Shown: piece after piece, positions 5,811 to 64,000 of the stretch
How positions within the stretch are numbered: position 1 is the stretch's first letter
Layout: every line of letters begins with the position of its first letter
IMG/VR virus record: IMGVR_UViG_3300027852_000034
Location: 33,461 to 97,460 of that record
DNA from: a virus
Lineage: Duplodnaviria; Heunggongvirae; Uroviricota; Caudoviricetes
Reading direction: 5' to 3' (one strand)
Length of the DNA: 64,000 nucleotides
Translations under genes and position numbers: made by a program
The notes under the pieces: generated by a model
What the model was told of the DNA's origin: nothing
Database searches by the model: none
Seen by the model: only the letters and a program-made list of their open reading frames with translations

Positions 5811-6131
5811 ATGATAATGGTATATCACAGCAAAGATTTTAGTAAAACCTGCAACTATGGTTATCCACCGCACCTAACTATAGATTCACTTCTACAAGGA
5901 CTAGATGATAGTTCACTATATGAACATGTAGCGGACATTGATTCTGATGATCTAGAAACAGCTTACCATCTTACAAATCATATAACTTCTAACTGGACTG
6001 AAAACGCAGGTGTTGATGCGGCACATTCTGAAGTGCGCAGTTCCTCAATAGGTGATCTCTTTATAGCACCTGACGGAATCTATGTAGTTGCACGTTGTGG
6101 TTTTGATAAAATTCGTAACCTCGATAACTAA
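5811..6131 (+). CDS. hypothetical protein
   Basis: ORF 106 aa. Confidence 0.55.
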   Translation: MIMVYHSKDFSKTCNYGYPPHLTIDSLLQGLDDSSLYEHVADIDSDDLETAYHLTNHITSNWTENAGVDAAHSEVRSSSIGDLFIAPDGIYVVARCGFDKIRNLDN

Positions 6132-6154
6132 AAGATCTTTGCTGAGGAATTGAA

Positions 6155-6343
6155 ATGAGAATCACTCTATACATAGGTAGTAAAGAAAAACGAATATACT
6201 CTGATCCTAGCCAAGCATGGTTAGAGGCTAATGACTTATCACTTGAATTCCCTGACACTCCGATACGAGGAGTTATGACAGGAGCACCTAAAAGGAATCA
6301 CGCTCCTTATACCTTTTTAAATGGTGCAGTGGAAATAGGATGA
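6155..6343 (+). CDS. hypothetical protein
   Basis: ORF 62 aa. Confidence 0.45.
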   Translation: MRITLYIGSKEKRIYSDPSQAWLEANDLSLEFPDTPIRGVMTGAPKRNHAPYTFLNGAVEIG

Positions 6344-6347
6344 TGAA

Positions 6348-6668
6348 ATGAGCCGCTTGCCAAAATGGACAATGAGTAAAGACGGTGTTAAAAGATGCAC
6401 CGTTAAATTTGAAAGGCGTGTAGGTCTTGATGAATGCACCATAGGTTTAGCTTACATAATCTACTGGGACAATGAATGCAATTTTGGAAATGATTTTGAC
6501 GCTGATAGATACAAAGATCGCTACAGCAAAAAGACTATCATTGATGTGGTTAAACAAGAACTTAAAGAGCAAGGTGAACATTTCTACTATCAAGAGGATA
6601 TTACTCAAGAAATCTTAGAATTCGCAGGAGAAGAAGCTATCCGAATCTTTATAAAGGAGTACAGATAA
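6348..6668 (+). CDS. hypothetical protein
   Basis: ORF 106 aa. Confidence 0.55.
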   Translation: MSRLPKWTMSKDGVKRCTVKFERRVGLDECTIGLAYIIYWDNECNFGNDFDADRYKDRYSKKTIIDVVKQELKEQGEHFYYQEDITQEILEFAGEEAIRIFIKEYR

Positions 6669-6892
6669 TGGGGGAAGCTAAACGTAAAGGTACTTTCGAA
6701 GAACGTAAGGCTAAGGCTATTCTCCGCGATGAGAAAGAACATAAAAAAATCCTAGCTTTGCATAAAGCCTCAACCGGTGTTCCTTTAAAAAGGAAATCAA
6801 GTAGTTTATTAACCCTTGCATTAGGCATGGCTGCTGCATCTTCACACCACGTAATTGCGTATAAAAGGAAACAACCGAAGGAACCAGAATAA
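6668..6892 (+). CDS. small basic protein
   Basis: ORF 74 aa, K/R-rich. Confidence 0.45.
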   Translation: MGEAKRKGTFEERKAKAILRDEKEHKKILALHKASTGVPLKRKSSSLLTLALGMAAASSHHVIAYKRKQPKEPE

Positions 6893-7054
6893 TGAGTAAA
6901 GTACCTGCTAAACATTTTGTTCAGATGCTCGCTGGTAACGTTGATAACAACAAACTCAGCCATGAGAGTTTTCGCGCCTTTGTTAGAAATACTCTGCCTA
7001 TAGTAGAAGGTGGAGAAAACTATAAAACTCCAAAAACTAAAAAGGATAAGGAAG

Positions 7055-56921: not shown

Positions 56922-58507
56922 TCTCTAAAAGAGCAATAGATGATTACCTTGCAAGAGATTTAGAAAGTTTTAACTGGATCAAAGAAGCTTCACATAAAGA
57001 AATGGATGAAGCTATTGCCCAGTTACCTGTTGAAGTAACTCTTAAACACCCGCCTTTTCGCCATCAAAAAGCTTCTTACTACATAGGTGCTTCCTTATCT
57101 AATTTTATGTATTTTTTAGATATGGGTTTGGGTAAAACTTTTATATCCTTAATGCTGATGTCTTATTATTTGCAGTTGAAAAAAATAGAAAAGATTTTAG
57201 TTGTAGTACCTAACGTAATCAATATAGAAGGTTGGGAAGAACAAATTCTAGAACATACTAACTTCGATTATGTATTATTGCATGGAAATAAAAATGAAAG
57301 AATGGAACTGCTAGATCAACATGCTCATATCTACGTAATTAATTATGACGGTCTTCAAACCATGATGACTGAATTACAACCAGCTAAGAAAAAAAAGAAA
57401 GGTAAAAAGGTAAAAGAAAGAACCCCTGTACCTGCATTAGTAAAAAATTTCACCTCAAAATTTCAAATGGTTGTATTTGATGAAATTCACAAAGCGAAAA
57501 ACACTACCTCTTTAACCTACTCACTTTGCCATTCCATTTCTAAAAAATGTGAATATAGATACGGATTAACAGGAACACCGTTTGGAAGAGACCCTATAGA
57601 TTTATGGGCACAGTTTCAATTAATAGATCACGGTGAAACATTAGGTCTTAAAGGTATGTACCAATCTGCATTTTTCACAACAAAGAAAAATTTTTGGGGA
57701 GGGTGGGAGCACAAATTTAAAAAGGCTATGGAAGAAGAGTTACATACCACTCTACAAAATAGATCTCTTAGATACGAGGATATTGAATGTGAGGATCTTC
57801 CTAAGCGTGTACATAAAGTAGTTCCTGTGTCCCTATCCTTAGATGCAATTACATATTATCGAGATATGTTGCAACAGGCTGCGGATACTAAGGACAATGA
57901 TGTACGGAGACAAGAAAATTTCTACATCAAAATGAGGGAGATAGCATCAGGTTTCGTATATGAAAAAGATGAGGACGGTAAAAAATTTACAATAACATTC
58001 TCCAATAATGAAAAACTTGATGCCTTAGATAATCTAATAGAGGATATGCCTAAAACCTCTAAGATGGTTATTTTTCATGTGTTCAATAGCAGTGGTGAGG
58101 TAATCTGTAATCATCTGAAGAAAAAGAAAATATCTTATGCAGCATTAAATTCTACAGAGAAGGATACAGCAGGGCAGTTACGTAAATTTAAAAATCAGAA
58201 AACCTGCAAGTTTCTTGTGCTAAATATAGCTACAGGTTCTACAGGATTAAATTTACAGATTGCAAATTATTGCGTATTCTATGAACCTACTGATAGACCT
58301 ATATGGCAACGTCAAGCCGAGAAACGAGTACATAGACAAGGACAAACAAAACGAGTTTACTATTACCACTTCGTAACAAAAGGTACTGTAGAAGAACGCA
58401 TCAGAACATTTTTAAAAGAAGGCAAAGATTTATTCGGTGCATTGATTGAAGGTAAGCAAGGGTATAAACAATTGATGGGTTTATGTGACAGTAAAACAAA
58501 ACCATAA
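56918..58507 (+). CDS. SNF2-family helicase
   Basis: Motif I DMGLGKT; motif II VFDEIHKAKN; C-terminal helicase domain; 529 aa. Confidence 0.8.
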   Translation: MISKRAIDDYLARDLESFNWIKEASHKEMDEAIAQLPVEVTLKHPPFRHQKASYYIGASLSNFMYFLDMGLGKTFISLMLMSYYLQLKKIEKILVVVPNVINIEGWEEQILEHTNFDYVLLHGNKNERMELLDQHAHIYVINYDGLQTMMTELQPAKKKKKGKKVKERTPVPALVKNFTSKFQMVVFDEIHKAKNTTSLTYSLCHSISKKCEYRYGLTGTPFGRDPIDLWAQFQLIDHGETLGLKGMYQSAFFTTKKNFWGGWEHKFKKAMEEELHTTLQNRSLRYEDIECEDLPKRVHKVVPVSLSLDAITYYRDMLQQAADTKDNDVRRQENFYIKMREIASGFVYEKDEDGKKFTITFSNNEKLDALDNLIEDMPKTSKMVIFHVFNSSGEVICNHLKKKKISYAALNSTEKDTAGQLRKFKNQKTCKFLVLNIATGSTGLNLQIANYCVFYEPTDRPIWQRQAEKRVHRQGQTKRVYYYHFVTKGTVEERIRTFLKEGKDLFGALIEGKQGYKQLMGLCDSKTKP

Positions 58508-58510
58508 AAA

Positions 58511-58556
58511 CATAGGTATAACTATTGCAAGTAAGCAAATATTATATATAATGTAA
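58511..58556 (+). promoter_or_regulatory. bipartite class-B promoter of Y-RNA array 1 (AGGTATAACTATTGCAAGT + ATATTATATATAATGTAA)
   Basis: Almost identical to the 61425 promoter; precedes first Y-RNA unit by ~20 nt. Confidence 0.6.
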
Positions 58557-58574
58557 TACAACAATTTTAGAAAA

Positions 58575-58684
58575 GCAGAACCGAAGAGACTGGATTATCT
58601 ACTGACAAGAAGTACGGGCAATAGTAACAGTCCTTTATTGTTGAAAGACAATATAAATTAAACCAGTATCATAACTTGTTCTGT
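58575..58684 (+). ncRNA. Y RNA-like unit 0
   Basis: Closing stem CAGAAC/GTTCTG; CCGAA-GAGACTGG-ATTATC; 3' AACTTG; followed by T-run. Confidence 0.7.
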
Positions 58685-58699
58685 TTACTTTTTTGAATG

Positions 58700-58825
58700 T
58701 AGGGCCGAAGTAATTAGGTTATCACACACTGTGGTACGTAGGTTCGAATCCTGCCTCTTCTAACGAAGAGTGGTCGAGTGGTTAGACAATAGTCCAAAAT
58801 GCCTACTTACAACAACTTGCCTTAC
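58700..58825 (+). ncRNA. Y RNA-like unit 1 with embedded tRNA-half-like module
   Basis: Stem AGGGC/GCCTT (G-U); CCGAA-GTAATTAG-GTTATC; internal GTAGGTTCGAATCCTGC T-arm, CTCTTC-TAAC-GAAGAG hairpin, D-loop-like GTCGAGTGGTTAGAC; 3' AACTTG. Confidence 0.7.
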
Positions 58826-58841
58826 TACTAGTTTTAGAATA

Positions 58842-58974
58842 TAGGACCGAAGTAATTAGATTATCGCGGAGCTGTTATACATAGGTTCGAATCCTGTCTC
58901 CCCGACACTAACGGGGAGTAGCCGAGCGGAGCAGGCGGCAGCAATATAACTCTATTTGCAATCAACTTGTCCTA
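58842..58974 (+). ncRNA. Y RNA-like unit 2 with embedded tRNA-half-like module
   Basis: Stem TAGGAC/GTCCTA; CCGAA-GTAATTAG-ATTATC; T-arm ATAGGTTCGAATCCTGT; CTCCCCG-ACACTAA-CGGGGAG hairpin; 3' AACTTG. Confidence 0.7.
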
Positions 58975-59099
58975 TTTTATTTTATGAGATTTTTAAATGA
59001 AGTCGTATAAACTTTTACAAAATTATTTAGGATATCTCAGAACCTTTGCAATGAAAACTGGGACTCCTATAATCACTGCTACACAAAAAGAGGCTAGAA

Positions 59100-59408
59100 A
59101 TGACTGTTTCAAAAAAAGAAGAACTTCAAAAGAAAGCACTTGAGGTTTTTAATAAACTCTCTGCAAAAAAGAAGTTTAAACGTTTGGCTAAAAGAGATTT
59201 TAAAATCTCTCTGTGTGAAACACATGATAACTATACCACAGTTATATTGTCCACAGGAAAAATCAGTTACGTAGGGACTGCAAAATGTAATCCTAATTTT
59301 GATGAAGTCGATCAAGATAGAGGTACATCTATTGCAATGTCCAGAGCCTTGTCACGTATGTTAGATACGAAAGACTCAGGTGTTCCAAAGTTATCTGTCT
59401 CACCGTAA
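59100..59408 (+). CDS. hypothetical protein
   Basis: ORF 102 aa between Y-RNA array 1 and tRNA-Leu. Confidence 0.5.
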   Translation: MTVSKKEELQKKALEVFNKLSAKKKFKRLAKRDFKISLCETHDNYTTVILSTGKISYVGTAKCNPNFDEVDQDRGTSIAMSRALSRMLDTKDSGVPKLSVSP

Positions 59409-59413
59409 TATTT

Positions 59414-59499
59414 GCGGAGATGGCGGAATTGGTAGACGCAAGGGATTTAAAATCCCTCGATCTTAGATCGTGAGGGTTCAAGTCCCTCTCTCCGCACCA
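59414..59499 (+). tRNA. tRNA-Leu(TAA), CCA encoded
   Basis: Acceptor GCGGAGA/TCTCCGC; D-arm GCGGAATTGGTAGACGC; anticodon arm AGGGA-TTTAAAA-TCCCT; long variable arm; T-arm GAGGGTTCAAGTCCCTC; ACCA. Confidence 0.85.
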
Positions 59500-59521
59500 T
59501 TTACTTTTACAGGGGATTCAC

Positions 59522-59788
59522 ATGTTAAAACATAAGTTTAAGCATAAGTTAGGTGCTGAGGCAAAAGATATAATCACAGGTTTTGAAGGTGTCATATATA
59601 GCCGTACTCAATGGTTACACAACTGTAACACCTACGGTTTGCAGCCTAAAGAATTGAAAGATGGTGTACCTCAAAAGTTAACCTACTTTGATGAGCCTCA
59701 ATTAAAGGTTATAAAAGCTAAGGTTATAAAACCTAAAAGGGATACAGGTGGACCTGTACGAGAAGTACCTGCTACTAATAGAGAGTAG
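59522..59788 (+). CDS. hypothetical protein
   Basis: ORF 88 aa, CAGGGGATTCACATG RBS. Confidence 0.45.
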   Translation: MLKHKFKHKLGAEAKDIITGFEGVIYSRTQWLHNCNTYGLQPKELKDGVPQKLTYFDEPQLKVIKAKVIKPKRDTGGPVREVPATNRE

Positions 59789-59794
59789 AAAAAA

Positions 59795-59869
59795 GCTCCA
59801 TTAGATCAGCGGTTAGATCCCAACCCTTTCAAGGTTGTAACTCCAGTTCGATTCTGGGATGGAGCACCA
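59795..59869 (+). tRNA. tRNA-Glu(TTC), CCA encoded
   Basis: Acceptor GCTCCAT/ATGGAGC; D-arm GATCAGCGGTTAGATC; anticodon arm CAACC-CTTTCAA-GGTTG; T-arm CCAGTTCGATTCTGG; ACCA. Confidence 0.85.
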
Positions 59870-59886
59870 ATTAAAGAAGATGGAAC

Positions 59887-60054
59887 ATGTACTACTATGT
59901 GATTCATTTAACAGAAACAGATGGTGACTGTATGGCACACTGTTGCCAATCTCCTAATGAAGTTAAGAAATATGTAAAAAAGCATCGCTTTGATAAAGAC
60001 GATTATATTCTTATTAAAGGAATGAGAACTAAATTAAACGAATGTGAAAACTAA
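59887..60054 (+). CDS. small Cys-containing protein (55 aa)
   Basis: Manually read ORF MYYYVIHLTETDGDCMAHCCQSPNEVKKYVKKH...; below track cutoff. Confidence 0.3.
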   Translation: MYYYVIHLTETDGDCMAHCCQSPNEVKKYVKKHRFDKDDYILIKGMRTKLNECEN

Positions 60055-60191
60055 GAACATGTGGCAATGGTTTCGTAAATTATTAGGTGGTACTTGGTAT
60101 TTAGTAGACAATGAAGGATGCCATTGTTCTTATTGGACACGTAAGAAACCGACTAGTAGTTGGTACTATATACGAAAGACAGAGAAATACT

Positions 60192-60270
60192 AGGGGCATG
60201 GCGAAGCTGGCCTAACGCACAAGGTTTTGATCCTTGCATTTCGATGGTTCGACTCCATCTGCCCCTTCCA
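60192..60270 (+). tRNA. tRNA-Gln(TTG), CCA encoded
   Basis: Acceptor AGGGGCA/TGCCCCT; D-arm GGCGAAGCTGGCCTAACGCA (like E. coli tRNA-Gln); anticodon arm CAAGG-TTTTGAT-CCTTG; T-arm GATGGTTCGACTCCATC; TCCA. Confidence 0.8.
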
Positions 60271-60275
60271 ATTTA

Positions 60276-60346
60276 GGTGTTAGTAGCTTAATGGCAAAGC
60301 TGCTCCGAGCGGAGTGAAAAGGAAGTTCGATTCTTTCTCTAACACA
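60276..60346 (+). ncRNA. aberrant tRNA-like element (good acceptor, D- and T-arms; anticodon arm with 4-nt loop)
   Basis: GTGTTAG/CTAACAC acceptor; D-arm GCTTAATGGCAAAGC; GCTCC-GAGC-GGAGT hairpin in place of anticodon arm; T-arm GGAAGTTCGATTCTTTC; no CCA. Confidence 0.4.
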
Positions 60347-60349
60347 AGG

Positions 60350-60815
60350 TTTAACAAGGTGGGAATACTGGAACATTGGAGATGAAAGTATTCTTTAAGA
60401 CGGGTGCCGGAGCTGACCAGGTCGTTAAATATTGTTTCTCAGCTTACGCTCCTTCTCGTAATCGGTGTGAATCCGATCATCTTGACCCAGACAGCGGTGA
60501 ACCGGACATGGATTGAGGGATAACTTAGTGACACCTACAATTCACGGTTATGCACTAATGGCCAATCCTGCTTCAAGGTTTGAATCCTTGCACCGCTTAT
60601 TAAATGAGGATATATGCCCGAATCCCTGTATGGTTAAGACATATATTCAATAGTCCAGAGGACCACAGAACGGTGTATGTGGAGCTAAAGCCCTGTCGCT
60701 ATGAAACATACACTTGCCGTAAGGATTGGGATGTTCGAAGCCGGAACTGATCGAGGCTCAAACCTGGCAAGTAGGTGGAAAGCCTACACTTATTTAACAA
60801 TCCTTTAATTTTTTA
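60350..60815 (+). ncRNA. ~460-nt ORF-poor structured non-coding segment within the tRNA cluster
   Basis: Multiple stable hairpins (GAATACT...AGTATTC; ATCGGTGTGAATCCGAT; CAAGGTTTGAATCCTTG T-arm-like); AGCGGTG ... CACCGCT long-range acceptor-like pairing spanning ~115 nt; no ORF >=60 aa. Confidence 0.35.
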
Positions 60816-60825
60816 GAGGTGGAGA

Positions 60826-60968
60826 TGACTGCTTTTCAAGAAGGTGTAGAAGCATACCATCGCGGAGATGATTTCAATAATGACAATCCGTTTGATGAAG
60901 AAGATTACCAACATGCAGAATGGCGGGCTGGCTGGGAAGCTGGCGCAGAATGTGAAGAGGAACTTTAA
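60826..60968 (+). CDS. small acidic protein (47 aa)
   Basis: Manually read ORF MTAFQEGVEAYHRGDDFNNDNPFDEEDYQHAEW...; AGAGGTGGAGATG RBS. Confidence 0.3.
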
Positions 60969-60970
60969 AA

Positions 60971-61282
60971 ATGCTTACTAGAAGAGATGTTCTAAAAGGT
61001 TTGATAGCACTGGCAGCAGCGCCTGCTATTGTAAAAGCTGAAAGTATTATGAAGATCAAACCTCTAATCATACCAGCAGGTTTTACCTGGGATGAACACA
61101 CCGTTGCAACCGTATCATTAGAGATCACTGACGGTATACATGCAGGAGATTATCTGCGTATCTATAATGCAGACACTGGAGAAATACTAGTAAACCAGAT
61201 TTTTAAATGTGATGAGGACATTATAACCTTGTCACCTCAGAGAAACCCTATAATCGTAACATCAGTTAGAACAATATGGTAA
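60971..61282 (+). CDS. small secreted protein with twin-arginine (Tat) signal
   Basis: MLTRRDVLKGLIALAAAPAIVKA: RRxVLK Tat motif + hydrophobic region + AxA cleavage site. Confidence 0.55.
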   Translation: MLTRRDVLKGLIALAAAPAIVKAESIMKIKPLIIPAGFTWDEHTVATVSLEITDGIHAGDYLRIYNADTGEILVNQIFKCDEDIITLSPQRNPIIVTSVRTIW

Positions 61283-61294
61283 ATTATCGCCTCC

Positions 61295-61369
61295 GCCAGC
61301 TTAGTTTAAGTGGTATAACAGTAGATTTGTAATCTTCCATCATCAGTTCGATTCTGATAGCTGGCTCCA
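61295..61369 (+). tRNA. tRNA-Thr(TGT), CCA encoded
   Basis: Acceptor GCCAGCT/AGCTGGC; anticodon loop TTTGTAA; T-arm ATCAGTTCGATTCTGAT; TCCA; one mismatch in anticodon stem. Confidence 0.65.
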
Positions 61370-61424
61370 ATTAACAACAGGAAAACCAATGGTTAATTAA
61401 AACAATTAATTAAAACACAAAAAC

Positions 61425-61480
61425 CACAGGTATAACTATTGCAAGTTTAGAAATATTATATATAATATAAGTTATATAGT
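61425..61480 (+). promoter_or_regulatory. bipartite class-B promoter of Y-RNA array 2
   Basis: CACAGGTATAACTATTGCAAGT...ATATTATATATAATATAA, near-duplicate of 58511..58556. Confidence 0.6.
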
Positions 61481-61489
61481 GTTTTGAAA

Positions 61490-61583
61490 GATGAACCGAA
61501 TATTAAGGGTTATCGCCGATGAAAGTGGCTACATGCCATTTGTAGGTTCAACTCCTACACTCCTTAATGAATACTTGTTCATC
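61490..61583 (+). ncRNA. Y RNA-like unit 3
   Basis: Stem ATGAAC/GTTCAT; CCGAA-TATTAAGG-GTTATC; internal T-arm-like GTAGGTTCAACTCCTAC; 3' TACTTG. Confidence 0.7.
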
Positions 61584-61595
61584 CACAGATTTAAA

Positions 61596-61664
61596 TGATG
61601 AGCCGAATGCTGGTAGGTTATCTTTTTGGGAGCTAATCCCTACAAGCGCGTTACTTGCTCATTT
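61596..61664 (+). ncRNA. Y RNA-like unit 4 (minimal)
   Basis: Stem ATGAGC/GCTCAT; CCGAA-TGCTGGTA-GGTTATC; TTACTTG 3' block. Confidence 0.7.
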
Positions 61665-61678
61665 AATGTTTTAAAATT

Positions 61679-61805
61679 ACGGACCGAATTGGATTGGGTT
61701 ATCCATGCAAGGAGGATGTCAGGGGTTCGATTCCCTTCTTATCTGAAAAGATAAGTAGCTCAGTTGGCAGAGCGCCTAAACCCCAATCCTAAATAACTTG
61801 TCCGT
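61679..61805 (+). ncRNA. Y RNA-like unit 5 with permuted-order tRNA-like insert
   Basis: Stem ACGGAC/GTCCGT; CCGAA-TTGGATTG-GGTTATC; insert order T-arm (AGGGGTTCGATTCCCTT) - CTTATCT-GAAA-AGATAAG acceptor-like hairpin - TA - D-arm GCTCAGTTGGCAGAGC; 3' AACTTG. Confidence 0.7.
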
Positions 61806-61840
61806 ATATCATTTAAGAGGAGTTTAAAATTAAGGGCCGA

Positions 61841-61938
61841 ATTGTTATGGGTTCTCTGACTGTTTATCAGGCAATATGGGTTCGACACCCATCTAGTGTG
61901 TGGACATAGCTTCCCCCAAAACTAATAACTTGCCCTTA
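61841..61938 (+). ncRNA. Y RNA-like unit 6 with anticodon-arm(GTT)+T-arm module
   Basis: Stem TAAGGGC/GCCCTTA; CCGAA-TTGTTATG-GGTTCTC; TCTGA-CTGTTTA-TCAGG and ATGGGTTCGACACCCAT hairpins; TTCCCCC tract; 3' AACTTG. Confidence 0.7.
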
Positions 61939-61952
61939 TACCGTTTAAATAT

Positions 61953-62056
61953 ATGGACCGAATTTAATTAGGTTATCATTAGTTCGACTCTAATCTACTG
62001 CTTAGGTAGTAGAGCCCTATAGGTAGGGCACCCCTAGTTATATGCAACTTGTCCAT
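61953..62056 (+). ncRNA. Y RNA-like unit 7
   Basis: Stem ATGGAC/GTCCAT; CCGAA-TTTAATTA-GGTTATC; T-arm-like ATTAGTTCGACTCTAAT; CACCCCTAG tract; 3' AACTTG. Confidence 0.7.
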
Positions 62057-62065
62057 ATTGTTTTA

Positions 62066-62138
62066 TATGAGCCGAATGTGTTGGGTTATCTCTCGGACTT
62101 ACACTCTGATCACCCCCGATACAGATCACTCGCTCATT
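62066..62138 (+). ncRNA. Y RNA-like unit 8 (minimal)
   Basis: Stem ATGAGC/GCTCAT; CCGAA-TGTGTTGG-GTTATC; N8-GG pairs with CCCGATACA; CACCCCC tract. Confidence 0.7.
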
Positions 62139-62150
62139 TTAATTTGTAAT

Positions 62151-62215
62151 TATGAGCCGAATAGGTTTAGGTTATCCTTCTAAGATACCCCCTAGACCTG
62201 ATTAACTTGCTCATT
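62151..62215 (+). ncRNA. Y RNA-like unit 9 (minimal)
   Basis: Stem ATGAGC/GCTCAT; CCGAA-TAGGTTTA-GGTTATC; AGGTTTAGG pairs with CCTAGACCT; TACCCCC tract; CTGATT-AACTTG. Confidence 0.75.
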
Positions 62216-62228
62216 TTAAGTTGAAATT

Positions 62229-62295
62229 GTGAGCCGAAAAGTGCAGGGTTATCTAACCTTCCAATGAACCCCTGTCTCTGATTAACTTGCTCACA
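62229..62295 (+). ncRNA. Y RNA-like unit 10 (minimal)
   Basis: Stem GTGAGC/GCTCAC; CCGAA-AAGTGCAG-GGTTATC; AACCCCTG tract; CTGATT-AACTTG. Confidence 0.75.
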
Positions 62296-62308
62296 CATAT
62301 TTAAAATG

Positions 62309-62336
62309 AGCCTTGCAATTTTGCAGGGCTTTTTTG
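62309..62336 (+). terminator. rho-independent terminator ending Y-RNA array 2
   Basis: GAGCCTTGCAA-TT-TTGCAGGGCT hairpin + T5. Confidence 0.7.
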
Positions 62337-62357
62337 TGAAAGAAAGGAGAATCAAAA

Positions 62358-64000
62358 ATGGCTGCACCATATGGCGACATTACTTCTAAAAAGAAGACCG
62401 CACAATCTCAAGCTATCCCAGGTAGAGAAGCAGAGATGGAAAAAAACAACGCAGGTGGATACACCTTTTTATCTAATGATTGGGATCAATTACTGCGATT
62501 CCTTATCATCGGTTCCATAGGTGGGACATACTATGTGACTCAGAATAAACTGACTTTGGATAACACAAGCCATATCAAAGGACTTGTCAAAGAAGATGGA
62601 ATTCGGGTTGTCAATGAAGTTGTCCGTGTATCTGATGAAGGTTTAGCCCTGCGTAATGACCCTGCACTGTTTGTACTGGCAATATGTGCTGCTGATGGAA
62701 ATATAGATGTACGCCAGCATGCTTTAGAGAACTTACCTAAAGTAGCTAGAACTGCTACCCATCTGTTTACTTTTATCTCATATGTAAAAGAAATGAGAGG
62801 TTGGGGACGTGCGTTAAAGAACGCTGTAGCAAACTGGTATCAAAAACGTAAGGCTCCTAGCTTGGCATATCAGATTGTCAAGTATCGTAACAGAGAAGGT
62901 TTCACTCACCGTGACGTACTTCGGTTAACAAAGCCTAAGCCAAAGGATGATGAGCATGACTTCCTGTACGGCTATGCTGCTAACAAAGTAGTCTTTGATG
63001 ATGGTAAGTTTATCAAATCTGAAAAAGATGCTAAGGATACTGTAATTCAATTACCTGCAGGATTAGATATCATCAAAGGTGTCGAATTAATAAAGCAGGA
63101 AGGTTTGTCTCGTACTCAAGTAGTTAATCTGATTTCAGATTATAATCTGACACATGAGATGATTCCTAACGAGTACAAAGGTGAGCCTGTTGTTTGGGAA
63201 GCACTGTTAGAGCGTATGCCACTTACTGCTATGATTCGTAACTTAGGTAAAATGACATCTATAGGTCTTTTAAAGCCTATGTCTAATGCATCTAAGCTGG
63301 TTGTAAACAAGTTGCGTGACCAGGAATACTTGCAGAAAAGCAGAGTACATCCAATTGCTGTACTTATTGCATTAAAAGTATATGCAAACGGTGCTGGTAT
63401 TAAAGGTAGCTTGGCTTGGAATCCAGTCCAAACTATTAATGATGCTCTTGAAGGTGGATTTTATAAAGCTTTTAAGAATGTAGAGCCTACTGGTAAAAAT
63501 ACATTACTTGCATTGGATGTATCAGGTTCTATGGGTTGGAATGATGTGATGGGCATTAACTTTATGAAATGCTCTGAACTGACAGCAGCTATGGCTTTGG
63601 TAACCGCAAATGTGGAGCCTAACTATATGATCTTTGGGTTCTCTGATCGGTTTAAAGCGTTGGATATTTCTGCTTCTGACTCTTTGATAGACGCTACTAG
63701 AAAAGTAGCCAATCGTACATTCGGACGTACAGATTGTGCATTACCTATGGAGTACGCTAAGCAGCAAAAATTGGATGTAGATTCTTTCTTTATTTATACA
63801 GACAATGAAACTTGGGCTGGTCGTATTCAACCATCACAAGCTTTGATTGCATACCGCAAAAAGTCTGGTAATGATGCTAAGCTGGCAGTAATTGCAGCAG
63901 CAGCAACCCGCTTTACAATTGCAGATCCAAAAGATCCTGGTATGTTAGATGTCTGCGGATTCAGTTCAGATACACCCAAAGTGTTAAGCGGGTTGCTGCT
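62358..64000 (+). CDS. rsr: Ro60/Rsr ortholog: TROVE domain + C-terminal vWA (MIDAS DVSGSM); 3'-partial at window end
   Basis: GAAAGGAGAATCAAAAATG RBS; N-terminus QLLRFLIIGSIGGTYYVTQNKLTLDN...LRNDPALFVLAICAAD aligns with human Ro60 [26 protein letters not shown]...KQEPMLFALAIGCAAD; HRDVLRLTKPKP vs HKDLLRLSHLKP; MIDAS LALDVSGSM. Confidence 0.85.
   Translation, partial: MAAPYGDITSKKKTAQSQAIPGREAEMEKNNAGGYTFLSNDWDQLLRFLIIGSIGGTYYVTQNKLTLDNTSHIKGLVKEDGIRVVNEVVRVSDEGLALRNDPALFVLAICAADGNIDVRQHALENLPKVARTATHLFTFISYVKEMRGWGRALKNAVANWYQKRKAPSLAYQIVKYRNREGFTHRDVLRLTKPKPKDDEHDFLYGYAANKVVFDDGKFIKSEKDAKDTVIQLPAGLDIIKGVELIKQEGLSRTQVVNLISDYNLTHEMIPNEYKGEPVVWEALLERMPLTAMIRNLGKMTSIGLLKPMSNASKLVVNKLRDQEYLQKSRVHPIAVLIALKVYANGAGIKGSLAWNPVQTINDALEGGFYKAFKNVEPTGKNTLLALDVSGSMGWNDVMGINFMKCSELTAAMALVTANVEPNYMIFGFSDRFKALDISASDSLIDATRKVANRTFGRTDCALPMEYAKQQKLDVDSFFIYTDNETWAGRIQPSQALIAYRKKSGNDAKLAVIAAAATRFTIADPKDPGMLDVCGFSSDTPKVLSGLL

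What the first reader, a model, noticed from the sequence alone, without database searches (positions are those of the whole stretch)
58700..61938. tRNA-half-like and circularly-permuted-order tRNA modules embedded inside Y-RNA units
Units 1, 2, 5 and 6 carry inserts that look like pieces of tRNAs in the loop between the TTATC block and the polyC tract.
- Units 1, 2 and 5: canonical T-arms (GTAGG-TTCGAAT-CCTGC; AGGGG-TTCGATT-CCCTT) are directly followed by a perfect 6-7 bp acceptor-like hairpin closed by a small loop (CTCTTC-TAAC-GAAGAG; CTCCCCG-ACACTAA-CGGGGAG; CTTATCT-GAAA-AGATAAG). Then come a U8-A9-like dinucleotide and a textbook D-arm (GCTC-AGTTGGCA-GAGC).
- The order is 3' half, then linker, then 5' half. 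That is the gene order of circularly permuted tRNAs, or of YrlA-type tRNA-like domains in bacterial Y RNAs.
- Unit 6 instead carries an anticodon arm with GTT, a variable loop and a T-arm (ATGGG-TTCGACA-CCCAT).
- This suggests modular capture of tRNA parts by Y-RNA scaffolds, possibly to mimic specific tRNAs.
Basis: seen in the sequence. Interest (0 to 1): 0.75.

Follow-up and report, generated by a model that had tools for sequence, protein, structure and literature searches.

The report
Phage Y RNA array with tRNA-like domains
The tRNA-like pieces are real: they are the known tRNA-mimicking domain of bacterial-type (YrlA) Y RNAs, found here in an unusually large set of 11 Y RNA genes next to a phage-encoded Ro60 protein.

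Summary
Every quoted T arm, closed acceptor-like hairpin, UA and D arm is present at the stated places.

They sit inside 11 tandem Y-RNA-like units, in two arrays of 3 and 8, on the + strand. The arrays lie 60-3,800 nt upstream of a phage Ro60 gene (TROVE + vWA_Ro60).

The order T arm, closed acceptor hairpin, UA, D arm is the defining domain of YrlA-class Y RNAs (Chen 2014; Wang 2018), which are already known in phages. Units 1, 2, 5 and also 7 have it.

- Rfam YrlA matches unit 5 over its full length, but below the curated threshold.
- A covariance model built here also finds the mycobacteriophage Catera YrlA.
- 48 related units show strong covariation.

Units 6 and 3 are reduced variants. 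Units 4, 8, 9 and 10 are plain Y RNAs.

Possibly new points:
- The size and diversity of the array, with unit order conserved in related uncultured phages.
- The hairpin 5' of the T arm often carries an anticodon-loop signature, so the domain reads as a complete permuted cloverleaf.

I found no evidence for recent capture of tRNA parts, for mimicry of specific tRNAs, or for functional permuted tRNA genes. Verdict: new members of a known kind, of moderate interest.

The parts
58514..58552 (+). Promoter-like element before array 1: AGGTATAACTATTGCAAG, containing TTGCAA, then 16 nt, then TATAAT.
   Evidence: One search gives 10 of 12 matches to the sigma-70 consensus; the exact 18-mer occurs only here and at 61428 in the 64 kb. 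The same motif precedes the arrays in L002, L004, L005 and L087.
58575..58684 (+). U0: Y-RNA-like unit with a non-tRNA-like insert.
   Evidence: R1 30.8 bits. CCGAA...GATTATC...ACTTGTTC scaffold. Ortholog at L002 7027-7138.
58699..58826 (+). U1: YrlA-type Y RNA. T arm 58738-58754; 6-bp closed acceptor hairpin 58755-58770; D arm 58773-58787. A 5-bp anticodon-stem-like helix ACUGU/AUAGU flanks the domain.
   Evidence: R1 99.8 bits. ARAGORN calls the de-permuted construct a tRNA.
58841..58975 (+). U2: YrlA-type Y RNA. T arm 58881-58897; 7-bp acceptor hairpin 58898-58918; UA; D arm 58921-58936. Anticodon-stem-like helix GCUGU/GCAGC.
   Evidence: R1 93 bits..
61428..61466 (+). Promoter-like element before array 2, with the identical 18-mer.
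61490..61583 (+). U3: Y RNA with hairpin AAGUGGC-UACAU-GCCAUUU (61523-61541) directly followed by T arm 61542-61558. No acceptor hairpin and no D arm.
   Evidence: R1 32.2 bits. In the orthologs L002 9201 and L004 2409 the stem sequence changes but stays paired.
61597..61663 (+). U4: short Y RNA with no tRNA-like part.
61678..61806 (+). U5: YrlA-type Y RNA. V hairpin about 61701-61717; T arm 61721-61737; 7-bp acceptor hairpin 61738-61755; UA; D arm 61758-61773.
   Evidence: Rfam YrlA 40 bits, full length, E 1.5e-6. R1 109 bits. MFE recovers all hairpins.
61831..61938 (+). U6: variant. Anticodon-arm-like hairpin 61855-61871 (loop CUGUUUA); CAAU; T arm 61876-61892; bulged 6-bp hairpin 61893-61909. 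No D arm.
   Evidence: R1 45.7 bits. The ortholog L002 9553 keeps the stems and changes the loop to CUGCAAA.
61952..62057 (+). U7: minimal YrlA-type unit. T arm 61978-61994 directly after UUAUC; 7-bp acceptor hairpin 61995-62012; D arm 62014-62029.
   Evidence: R1 85.5 bits.
62066..62138 (+). U8: short Y RNA.
   Evidence: Motif. Alignment and covariation of short units. Not reported by R1 at E<=0.01.
62151..62215 (+). U9: short Y RNA.
   Evidence: R1 37.2 bits..
62228..62295 (+). U10: short Y RNA.
   Evidence: Motif.. Not reported by R1 at E<=0.01.
62308..62331 (+). Intrinsic-terminator-like hairpin plus T run that closes array 2.
   Evidence: Conserved in L002, L004, L005 and L087.
62358..64000 (+). 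Ro60 ortholog (551 aa in full; it runs off the end of the window).
   Evidence: Pfam TROVE 1.5e-42 and vWA_Ro60 6e-55. The full gene is in L001.

Best explanation
The region holds genes for bacterial-type Y RNAs, the small RNA partners of the Ro60 ring protein. They belong to a roughly 158-kb uncultured phage.

Each unit closes its 5' and 3' ends into a bulged stem (5' RRNCCGAA / 3' ACUUGYYY). This matches the Ro60-binding helix of animal and Deinococcus Y RNAs. A second stem follows, and a variable distal module begins at the conserved UUAUC.

In U1, U2, U5 and U7 the distal module is the YrlA tRNA-like domain. It consists of a variable loop, a T arm, an acceptor stem closed by a small loop, U8-A9 and a D arm. 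The Y stem enters where the anticodon stem would be. This domain folds into a tRNA L-shape.

Inferred steps, not shown here:
- The two arrays are each transcribed from a conserved promoter-like element and cut into separate RNAs.
- Each RNA binds the phage Ro60 through the lower stem.
- Each RNA presents its distal module to a tRNA-binding or RNA-degrading host factor. Candidates are PNPase, as in the RYPER complex and as reported for Thermus phage phiLo, or RNase P, TruB and Dus enzymes. This would retarget RNA surveillance during infection.

The 11 different modules would give 11 different Ro60 particles.
For: Shown here:
- A Ro60 gene lies immediately downstream.
- Eleven units share the scaffold.
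- Rfam YrlA hits U5 end to end.
- T arm, acceptor hairpin and D arm are parsed in 13 of 13 units of four related contigs. The acceptor stems differ in sequence (12 distinct 5' strands among 13) but are perfectly paired.
- RNAalifold and pair counts show compensatory changes in the lower stem, upper stem, T arm and D arm.
- Model R1 finds 158 hits in 84 Ro60-oriented sources (the window and 83 loci). All are on the Ro60 strand.
- R1 finds the mycobacteriophage Catera YrlA at 64 bits, just upstream of its Ro gene.
- ARAGORN of 10 de-permuted constructs tRNAs and none in native order.
- The Rfam tRNA model bridges the D half of U1 to the T half of U2 at 28.6 bits.

From the literature:
- YrlA architecture, the GNCGAA and YUAY motifs, and modification by TruB and DusA (PMC4201824).
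- M. smegmatis YrlA, which has a 7-bp acceptor stem, is cleaved by RNase P and gains CCA (PMC4201824).
- Crystal structure of the L-shaped fold (10.1101/312249).
- Phage phiLo Ro60 binds two Yrl RNAs and host PNPase (PMC12135203).
Against: - No unit reaches Rfam's YrlA gathering score (best 40 bits against 69). Catera's published-type YrlA also scores only 36 bits, so this weighs little.
- Only 3 of 11 units match the strict GNCGAAN0-1G motif. All have CCGAA.
- Expression, processing, Ro60 binding and the effector are not shown.
- U2's T arm and U6's cloverleaf-like fold are not the minimum-energy folds.
Confidence: 0.88

Rival explanations
1. They are functional circularly permuted tRNA genes. 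The transcript would be cut in the acceptor loop by RNase P and a 3' processing activity, receive CCA, and serve in translation. The product would be a two-piece tRNA or a tRNA matured through a circular intermediate.
For: - ARAGORN accepts all de-permuted constructs, including four that use the native V hairpin as the anticodon arm.
- 8 of 13 acceptor hairpins are exactly 7 bp.
- M. smegmatis YrlA is cleaved by RNase P and gains CCA in vivo (PMC4201824).
Against: - Every module is enclosed in a conserved Ro-binding stem next to Ro60.
- U1 and U2 have no anticodon loop at all.
- Bodies and 'anticodons' are chimeric. L004 2667 pairs a GCU 'anticodon' with a class I body. U2 has a class II-like D arm but a 5-nt variable loop (sequence reading plus my own knowledge of tRNA classes).
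- No CCA is encoded.
- The phage has ordinary tRNA genes alongside.
Confidence: 0.04
2. They are decaying remnants of tandem tRNA genes (pseudogenes) without function.
For: - The units lie in a tRNA-rich region.
- The dimeric-tRNA origin model for YrlA (10.1101/312249).
- The tRNA model bridges neighbouring units.
Against: - Compensatory changes maintain every helix.
- Unit types and their order are kept between phages whose Ro60 proteins are only 76% identical.
- Hits are strictly on the Ro60 strand in 84 sources.
Confidence: 0.03
3. The tRNA-like and anticodon-like modules act mainly as decoys or sponges for host tRNA-targeting defence or processing enzymes, such as anticodon nucleases or RNase P. 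Ro60 would only stabilise them.
For: - Many different modules are present.
- The V hairpins carry an anticodon-loop signature with varied triplets.
- A Ro60-like protein of phage Bas63 counters the ppl defence system (PMC11482910).
Against: - No defence target is known for this host.
- Five of the 11 units (U0, U4, U8, U9, U10) have no tRNA-like part.
- This is a refinement of the best explanation rather than a true alternative.
Confidence: 0.12

Closest known systems
YrlA RNAs (Rfam RF02553; Chen et al. 2014, PMC4201824; Wang et al. 2018, 10.1101/312249), including those of mycobacteriophages such as Catera
   Same: - Encoded beside Ro60.
- CCGAA-type motif near the 5' end, and the conserved YUAY (here UUAUC).
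- V stem-loop, T arm, closed acceptor stem, UA and D arm in that order.
- G15 and C48 are present in U1, U2 and U5.
   Different: - Both strands of the Ro-binding helix are recognisable, as in animal and Deinococcus Y RNAs.
- 11 units per genome, whereas Chen 2014 reported 355 YrlAs in 276 genomes.
- Scores lie below Rfam's threshold.
- The array also includes reduced variants (U3, U6) and a minimal form (U7).
Thermus phage phiLo Ro60 with Yrl1 and Yrl2 (PMC12135203)
   Same: A phage-encoded Ro60 with Y-RNA-like genes just upstream, carrying the CGAA motif in a stem-bulge-stem structure.
   Different: - phiLo has two units and no tRNA-like domain is described (the paper does not contain the terms YrlA or tRNA-like).
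- Here there are 11 units, four of them with a full tRNA-like domain.
Deinococcus radiodurans Yrn1 and the RYPER complex
   Same: A Y RNA with a two-strand Ro-binding helix and a T arm. It provides the model in which a Y RNA tethers Ro60 to PNPase.
   Different: Yrn1 has its tRNA-like parts in natural order (D-like, anticodon-like, T). U1, U2, U5 and U7 have the permuted order. U3 may be closer to Yrn1 or to M. smegmatis YrlB, which has a T arm only.
Circularly permuted tRNA genes of the red alga Cyanidioschyzon merolae (from my own knowledge, not checked in the library)
   Same: The 3' half (T arm and 3' acceptor strand) lies upstream of the 5' half (5' acceptor strand and D arm), joined by a short linker.
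   Different: Those genes mature into working tRNAs through a circular intermediate. Here the module is locked into a Y RNA scaffold, and in U1, U2 and U7 it lacks an anticodon loop.
Animal Y RNAs (for example human Y1; from my own knowledge)
   Same: The 5' GGNCCGA / 3' UUGNCC bulged helix, a following GUUAUC-like element, and a pyrimidine-rich distal loop in the short units.
   Different: Animal Y RNAs have no tRNA-like domain. Their genes are separate Pol III units, not arrays.

Membership tests
YrlA-class Y RNA | Encoded within about 4 kb of a Ro60 (TROVE) gene, the criterion used by Chen 2014 | tested here: met
   Ro60 starts at 62358. U3-U10 lie 63-870 nt upstream and U0-U2 lie 3.4-3.8 kb upstream, all on the same strand.
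YrlA-class Y RNA | GNCGAAN0-1G motif near the 5' end | tested here: inconclusive
   CCGAA is in 11 of 11 units. GCCGAA is in 6 of 11. The strict motif is in 3 of 11 (U1, U4, U8), by reading. The others read ACCGAA, which fits the animal GGUCCGA pattern.
YrlA-class Y RNA | T stem-loop, then a closed acceptor-like stem-loop, then UA, then a D stem-loop, in that order | tested here: met
   U1, U2, U5 and U7. Covariation is shown. U7 has a single A in place of UA, and U1 has UG.
YrlA-class Y RNA | Conserved YUAY at the start of the V region | tested here: met
   UUAUC is in 10 of 11 units, and UUCUC in U6.
YrlA-class Y RNA | Elements for tRNA tertiary contacts: GG in the D loop, UUCRA in the T loop, and the 15:48 Levitt pair | tested here: met
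   Read. The D loops contain GG. The T loops read TTCGAnn. G15 with C48 is present in U1, U2 and U5.
YrlA-class Y RNA | Reaches the Rfam RF02553 gathering score (69 bits) | tested here: not met
   U5 scores 40 bits, U1 19.5 and U2 18.5. Mycobacteriophage Catera's YrlA scores only 36.1 bits and Gordonia phage Sixama's 46.8. No YrlA match reached the threshold in the 12 related phage loci scanned. The threshold therefore excludes the phage YrlA-type units tested here in general.
YrlA-class Y RNA | Bound by Ro60, and carries pseudouridine 55 and dihydrouridine | not testable with these tools
   Needs immunoprecipitation and modification mapping.
Functional circularly permuted tRNA gene | All four arms present, so that joining the ends and opening the acceptor loop gives a complete tRNA | tested here: inconclusive
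   ARAGORN accepts all 10 de-permuted constructs. Six of them needed an artificial anticodon loop, and an ACCA tail was added to all.
Functional circularly permuted tRNA gene | A free-standing gene whose product is not enclosed in another RNA, with tRNA identity elements that agree with each other | tested here: not met
   All modules lie inside the Ro-binding stem. D-arm class, variable loop and 'anticodon' disagree with each other (plus general tRNA knowledge).
tmRNA (including two-piece permuted forms) | tRNA-like domain plus a tag reading frame | tested here: not met
   ARAGORN and Rfam found no tmRNA in the window.

The most novel reading that the evidence does not exclude
The YrlA domain may be a complete, circularly permuted cloverleaf in many phage Y RNAs, rather than a tRNA lacking its anticodon arm. 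The hairpin called V, read until now as a variable arm, would be an anticodon-arm mimic. It has a 4-5 bp stem and a 7-nt loop with U33 and R37, and its triplets vary. The Ro-binding stem would then be inserted at the 26/27 junction.

A phage lineage has expanded this into a conserved battery of 10-11 Y RNAs. Each shows a different subset of tRNA arms: the full set, no anticodon loop, no D arm, T arm only, or none.

If so, the battery would be a graded set of tRNA decoys or adaptors that direct phage Ro60 to different host tRNA-handling or tRNA-targeting enzymes.
Probability: 0.25. Interest if true: 0.7.

Novelty: new member of a known kind. Interest (0 to 1): 0.42.

Why it matters
What the tRNA-like domain of bacterial Y RNAs binds is still unknown. 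This lineage carries 11 paralogs that keep the Ro60-binding stem but systematically vary which tRNA arms are displayed, and relatives conserve the set. That makes it a natural dissection series. Pull-downs with single units could show which arm recruits which host factor.

The results also show that Ro60 with several Y RNAs, often beside tRNA clusters, is common in uncultured phages. These RNAs escape the Rfam threshold, so phage genome annotation misses them.

Tried and rejected
- Megablast of 58500-64000 against 50,697 phage records: no match.
- tblastn of Ro60 against the same records: best identity 44%, in actinophages.
- Single-protein search of viral contigs: nothing. The profile search worked.
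- Rfam at gathering thresholds: only tRNAs, in the window and in 12 related loci.
- Metagenome scan for U6 orthologs with ATGGGTTCGANNCCCATCTAGTG: no match. U6 therefore rests on two orthologs, with no covariation in its anticodon-like stem.
- Recent capture from the phage's own tRNAs: rejected. The longest shared strings are 11 nt or less, in or beside the near-universal GGTTCGA T-arm segment except for one 10-nt D-arm match.
- Non-coding stretch 60347-60815 as a large structured RNA: fold z-score -0.15, no Rfam hit.
- ARAGORN on the native arrays, with and without the intron option: no tRNA.
- Two reviews (PMC10870794, PMC6047535) and the supplementary tables of Chen 2014 are not held. I could not check the largest number of Y RNAs previously reported per genome.

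Full report
**Context**

The window is part of a 158-kb metagenomic contig (ENA ERZ27237542, k141_2819039). Its genes are phage-like: gp32-like, RecA/UvsX-like, DnaB-like and SNF2 helicases, and a 5'-3' exonuclease.

An ORF starting at 62358 and running off the window is a Ro60 ortholog. Pfam gives TROVE at 1.5e-42 and vWA_Ro60 at 6e-55. It is 551 aa in full (P0001). No cultured phage is close: megablast finds nothing, and the best tblastn identity is 44%, in actinophages.

**The observation**

The elements sit in repeated units on the + strand. Each unit has the layout 5' NNRRNCCGAA - 8-10 nt - GGUUAUC - variable insert - C-rich strand - AACUUGYYYNN 3'.

The pattern CCGAA-N5-14-KKTTMTC occurs 9 times, all on the + strand and all within 58705-62253, against 0.29 expected. 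A looser reading finds 11 units.
- U0-U2 (58575-58975) follow a promoter-like element at 58514-58552.
- U3-U10 (61490-62295) follow an identical 18-mer at 61428-61445 and end at a terminator-like hairpin at 62308-62331.
- Between the two arrays lie small ORFs and four confident tRNA genes (Leu, Glu, Gln, Thr) plus one odd tRNA-like gene at 60277-60346.

**What the units are**

The 5' and 3' ends pair into a 7-bp stem followed by a bulged CCGAA/ACUUG segment and a second stem. Chen et al. (PMC4201824) give GGUCCGA as the vertebrate sequence contacted by Ro60 and GNCGAAN0-1G as the bacterial YrlA motif. They also note a conserved YUAY that begins the V region, which here is UUAUC.

Rfam's YrlA model aligns U5 end to end at 40 bits, E 1.5e-6.

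Relatives were found through Ro60.
- L002 and L003 have 76% Ro60 identity and are syntenic from the PDDEXK gene to Hydrolase_2.
- L004 and L087 have about 67% identity.
- L005 has 56% identity.

All carry the same kind of arrays behind the same promoter-like motif. L002 has ten units in the same order of types as the window.

**Evidence for the tRNA-like domain**

In 13 units from these four contigs, a 5-bp T stem with a TTCRAnn loop is followed, after 0-1 nt, by a perfect 6-8 bp hairpin. Eight of the 13 hairpins are exactly 7 bp. Then come, in most units, two nucleotides (UA in 9 of 13) and a 3-4 bp D arm with GG in its loop.

The acceptor-like stems have 12 distinct 5' strands among the 13 units. 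Shuffled segments give such a hairpin in 1.3% of trials.

RNAalifold on the 13 units recovers the lower stem, T arm and D arm, with compensatory changes in 12 of 15 pairs.

I built a covariance model, R1, from this alignment. Over 84 Ro60-oriented sources (the window and 83 loci; 957 kb, both strands) it finds 158 matches, all on the Ro60 strand. On 48 distinct matches with E<=1e-7:
- 94.7% of cells are paired, against 33-44% when partners are slid.
- 22 of 24 pairs change on both sides.
- No shuffle reaches the observed values.

That alignment was fitted to the model, so it leans towards the structure. The slid controls, which used a plain MAFFT alignment, agree with it.

R1 also finds one unit at 64 bits just upstream of the Ro gene of mycobacteriophage Catera, one of the group in which Chen et al. 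reported YrlA. It finds several units in Gordonia phage Sixama. Rfam's own model scores these at only 36 and 47 bits. Falling below Rfam's threshold of 69 is therefore normal for the phage YrlA-type units tested here.

**The permuted-tRNA reading**

In native order ARAGORN finds no tRNA in the arrays. I then cut each unit in the acceptor loop, joined it across the Y stem and added an ACCA tail. ARAGORN of 10 such constructs tRNAs. Six of these needed an artificial anticodon loop. Four used only native sequence plus the tail.

The Rfam tRNA model also bridges the D half of U1 to the T half of U2 (28.6 bits against a threshold of 29) and U5 to U6 (23.2 bits).

So the order is indeed that of a permuted tRNA. 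But the module is enclosed in the Ro-binding scaffold, and U1 and U2 have no anticodon loop. In those units a 5-bp helix forms between the strand before the variable loop and the strand after the D arm, and it covaries among relatives: ACUGU/AUAGU, GCUGU/GCAGC, ACUAU/AUAGU, GCAGC/GCUGU and ACUGU/ACAGU (read). The tRNA identity features are also chimeric. This is the published YrlA architecture, in which the Y stem continues the anticodon stem (10.1101/312249).

**Variants within the array**

- U7 and its orthologs are minimal. The T arm starts right after UUAUC, and the D arm runs directly into the upper stem.
- U3 and its orthologs have a hairpin directly followed by a T arm and nothing else. 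The hairpin stem changes sequence between orthologs but stays paired (GUGGC/GCCAU, ACGGC/GCCGU, GUUGGC/GCCAAU). M. smegmatis YrlB is also reported to contain a T arm (PMC4201824).
- U6 has a 5-bp stem with the 7-nt loop CUGUUUA, a 4-nt spacer, a T arm, then a 6-bp hairpin with one bulge, and no D arm.
- The only ortholog of U6 (L002 9553, also in L003) keeps all the stems but has the loop CUGCAAA.
- The cloverleaf-like fold of U6 is shared by both orthologs, at -25.9 and -26.2 kcal/mol. It is about 5 kcal/mol worse than the MFE folds, which differ between the two. There is no covariation yet, so U6's anticodon-like arm is plausible but not established.
- U4, U8, U9 and U10 are short Y RNAs with two covarying stems and a C-rich loop.

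**A point that may be new**

The hairpin 5' of the T arm is called V by Chen et al. and read as a variable arm. It often has a 4-5 bp stem and a 7-nt loop of the form YU-NNN-AA, followed by a GAGGUC-like variable loop. Examples:
- TCCA-CTCATAA-TGGA
- TCTC-CTTGAAA-GAGA
- TCGA-CTATGAA-TCGA
- TCAC-CTGTTAA-GTGA
- TCTGA-CTGCAAA-TCAGG

Of 41 such 7-nt-loop hairpins, 19 have U at loop position 2 and a purine at position 6. Only 15% of control hairpins from the same loci do. The units are related, so the nominal p of 1.6e-6 overstates the case. The central triplets vary widely.

Catera (CTC-ATTGCAA-GAG) and Sixama (TCGA-ATTGGGA-TCGA) show the same pattern (read). Where V is a closed hairpin abutting the variable loop, it occupies the topological place of the anticodon arm. 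The domain is then a complete permuted cloverleaf.

This fits the proposal that YrlA arose from a dimeric tRNA transcript (10.1101/312249). I did not find it stated in the papers I could read.

**How common arrays are**

Among 80 Ro60 loci from IMG/VR, R1 found this distribution of units per locus:

| Units per locus | 0 | 1 | 2 | 3 | 4 | 5 | 6 | 7 |
|---|---|---|---|---|---|---|---|---|
| Loci | 27 | 14 | 20 | 10 | 5 | 2 | 1 | 1 |

One of the seven hits in the top locus, L063, overlaps two adjacent tRNA genes and is likely a dimeric-tRNA false positive. The model is biased towards the window's lineage, so these counts are lower bounds.

Other metagenomic contigs have about 5-7 distinct unit matches (L097, L102). 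Some lower-scoring partial matches there may be tRNA T arms and were not checked. Sixama has about four units, lying in unannotated gaps between its tRNA genes.

The window has 11 by eye, 9 of them found by R1. With L002 at 10, these are the largest arrays seen here. Chen et al. reported 355 YrlAs in 276 genomes, and phiLo has two Yrls (PMC12135203).

**Function**

Nothing here shows function. By analogy:
- Y RNAs tether Ro60 to PNPase in Deinococcus (PMC4201824).
- phiLo Ro60, its Yrl RNAs and host PNPase form a complex (PMC12135203).
- A Ro60-like protein of phage Bas63 counters the ppl defence system (PMC11482910).

I infer that the phage makes a family of Ro60 particles whose distal modules engage host tRNA-binding or RNA-decay factors.

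I found no support for recent capture of tRNA parts. The longest exact matches to the window's tRNAs are 11 nt or less. All lie in or beside the near-universal GGTTCGA T-arm segment, apart from a 10-nt D-arm match between U2 and the odd tRNA.

**Verdict**

The specific RNAs are new members. The array size, the graded module types and the anticodon-like V hairpin are worth a specialist's follow-up.

Noticed in passing
window 58514-58531 and 61428-61445: An identical 18-mer, AGGTATAACTATTGCAAG, sits before each Y RNA array. It overlaps a TTGCAA-16-TATAAT promoter-like site. There are no other exact copies in the 64 kb, only two sites with three mismatches. The same motif precedes the arrays in L002, L004, L005 and L087.
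   Followed up: partly
window 60493-60597: A tRNA-like element that no tool called. It has a 7-bp acceptor-like pairing AGCGGUG/CACCGCU flanking about 75 nt and a T arm CAAGG-TTTGAAT-CCTTG. The overlapping stretch 60493-60601 is 81% identical to L002 8775-8884, while the rest of the non-coding stretch 60347-60815 is not conserved.
   Followed up: partly
window 60277-60346: An odd tRNA. ARAGORN calls it tRNA-??? with a 6-nt anticodon loop (two-base 'anticodon' ag). Rfam tRNA scores it 27.4 bits, just under the threshold of 29. It lies 7 nt after tRNA-Gln.
   Followed up: no
window 58764-58905 and 61749-61900: The Rfam tRNA model bridges the D half of one Y unit to the T half of the next, at 28.6 and 23.2 bits. 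This is the mirror image of the dimeric-tRNA false positives that Chen et al. warned about.
   Followed up: yes
L108 (Gordonia phage Sixama MN484601) 5986-6407, 6409-6503, 6663-6788, 6871-6997: A tmRNA (88 bits) and three Y-RNA-like units lie in gaps of the GenBank annotation, between annotated tRNA genes just downstream of the Ro-like gene. None of them is annotated in the record.
   Followed up: partly
L063 8290-11201, L099 and L108; window 59414-61369: Phage Ro60 and Y RNA loci are often next to, or interleaved with, large tRNA gene clusters. L063 has more than 20 tRNAs downstream.
   Followed up: no
L005 119-524 and 1034-1316: In the 56%-identity relative, the Ro-site motif reads GAGCCACA instead of CCGAA in all six units. 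The 3' strand CAACUUGCUC is kept. This suggests co-variation with its Ro60.
   Followed up: no
window 59100-59408 and L005 552-833: A small ORF between the two arrays appears conserved by eye (shared ...KCNPN...IA.SRAL... stretch). It has no Pfam match.
   Followed up: no
L002 7153-7282 and 9394-9527: Two different units of one genome share an identical 25-nt stretch covering the end of the variable loop, the T arm and the first acceptor bases (GGTCGCAGGTTCGAGTCCTGTCAAG). L005 269 has the same T arm. This hints at gene conversion between paralogs.
   Followed up: no
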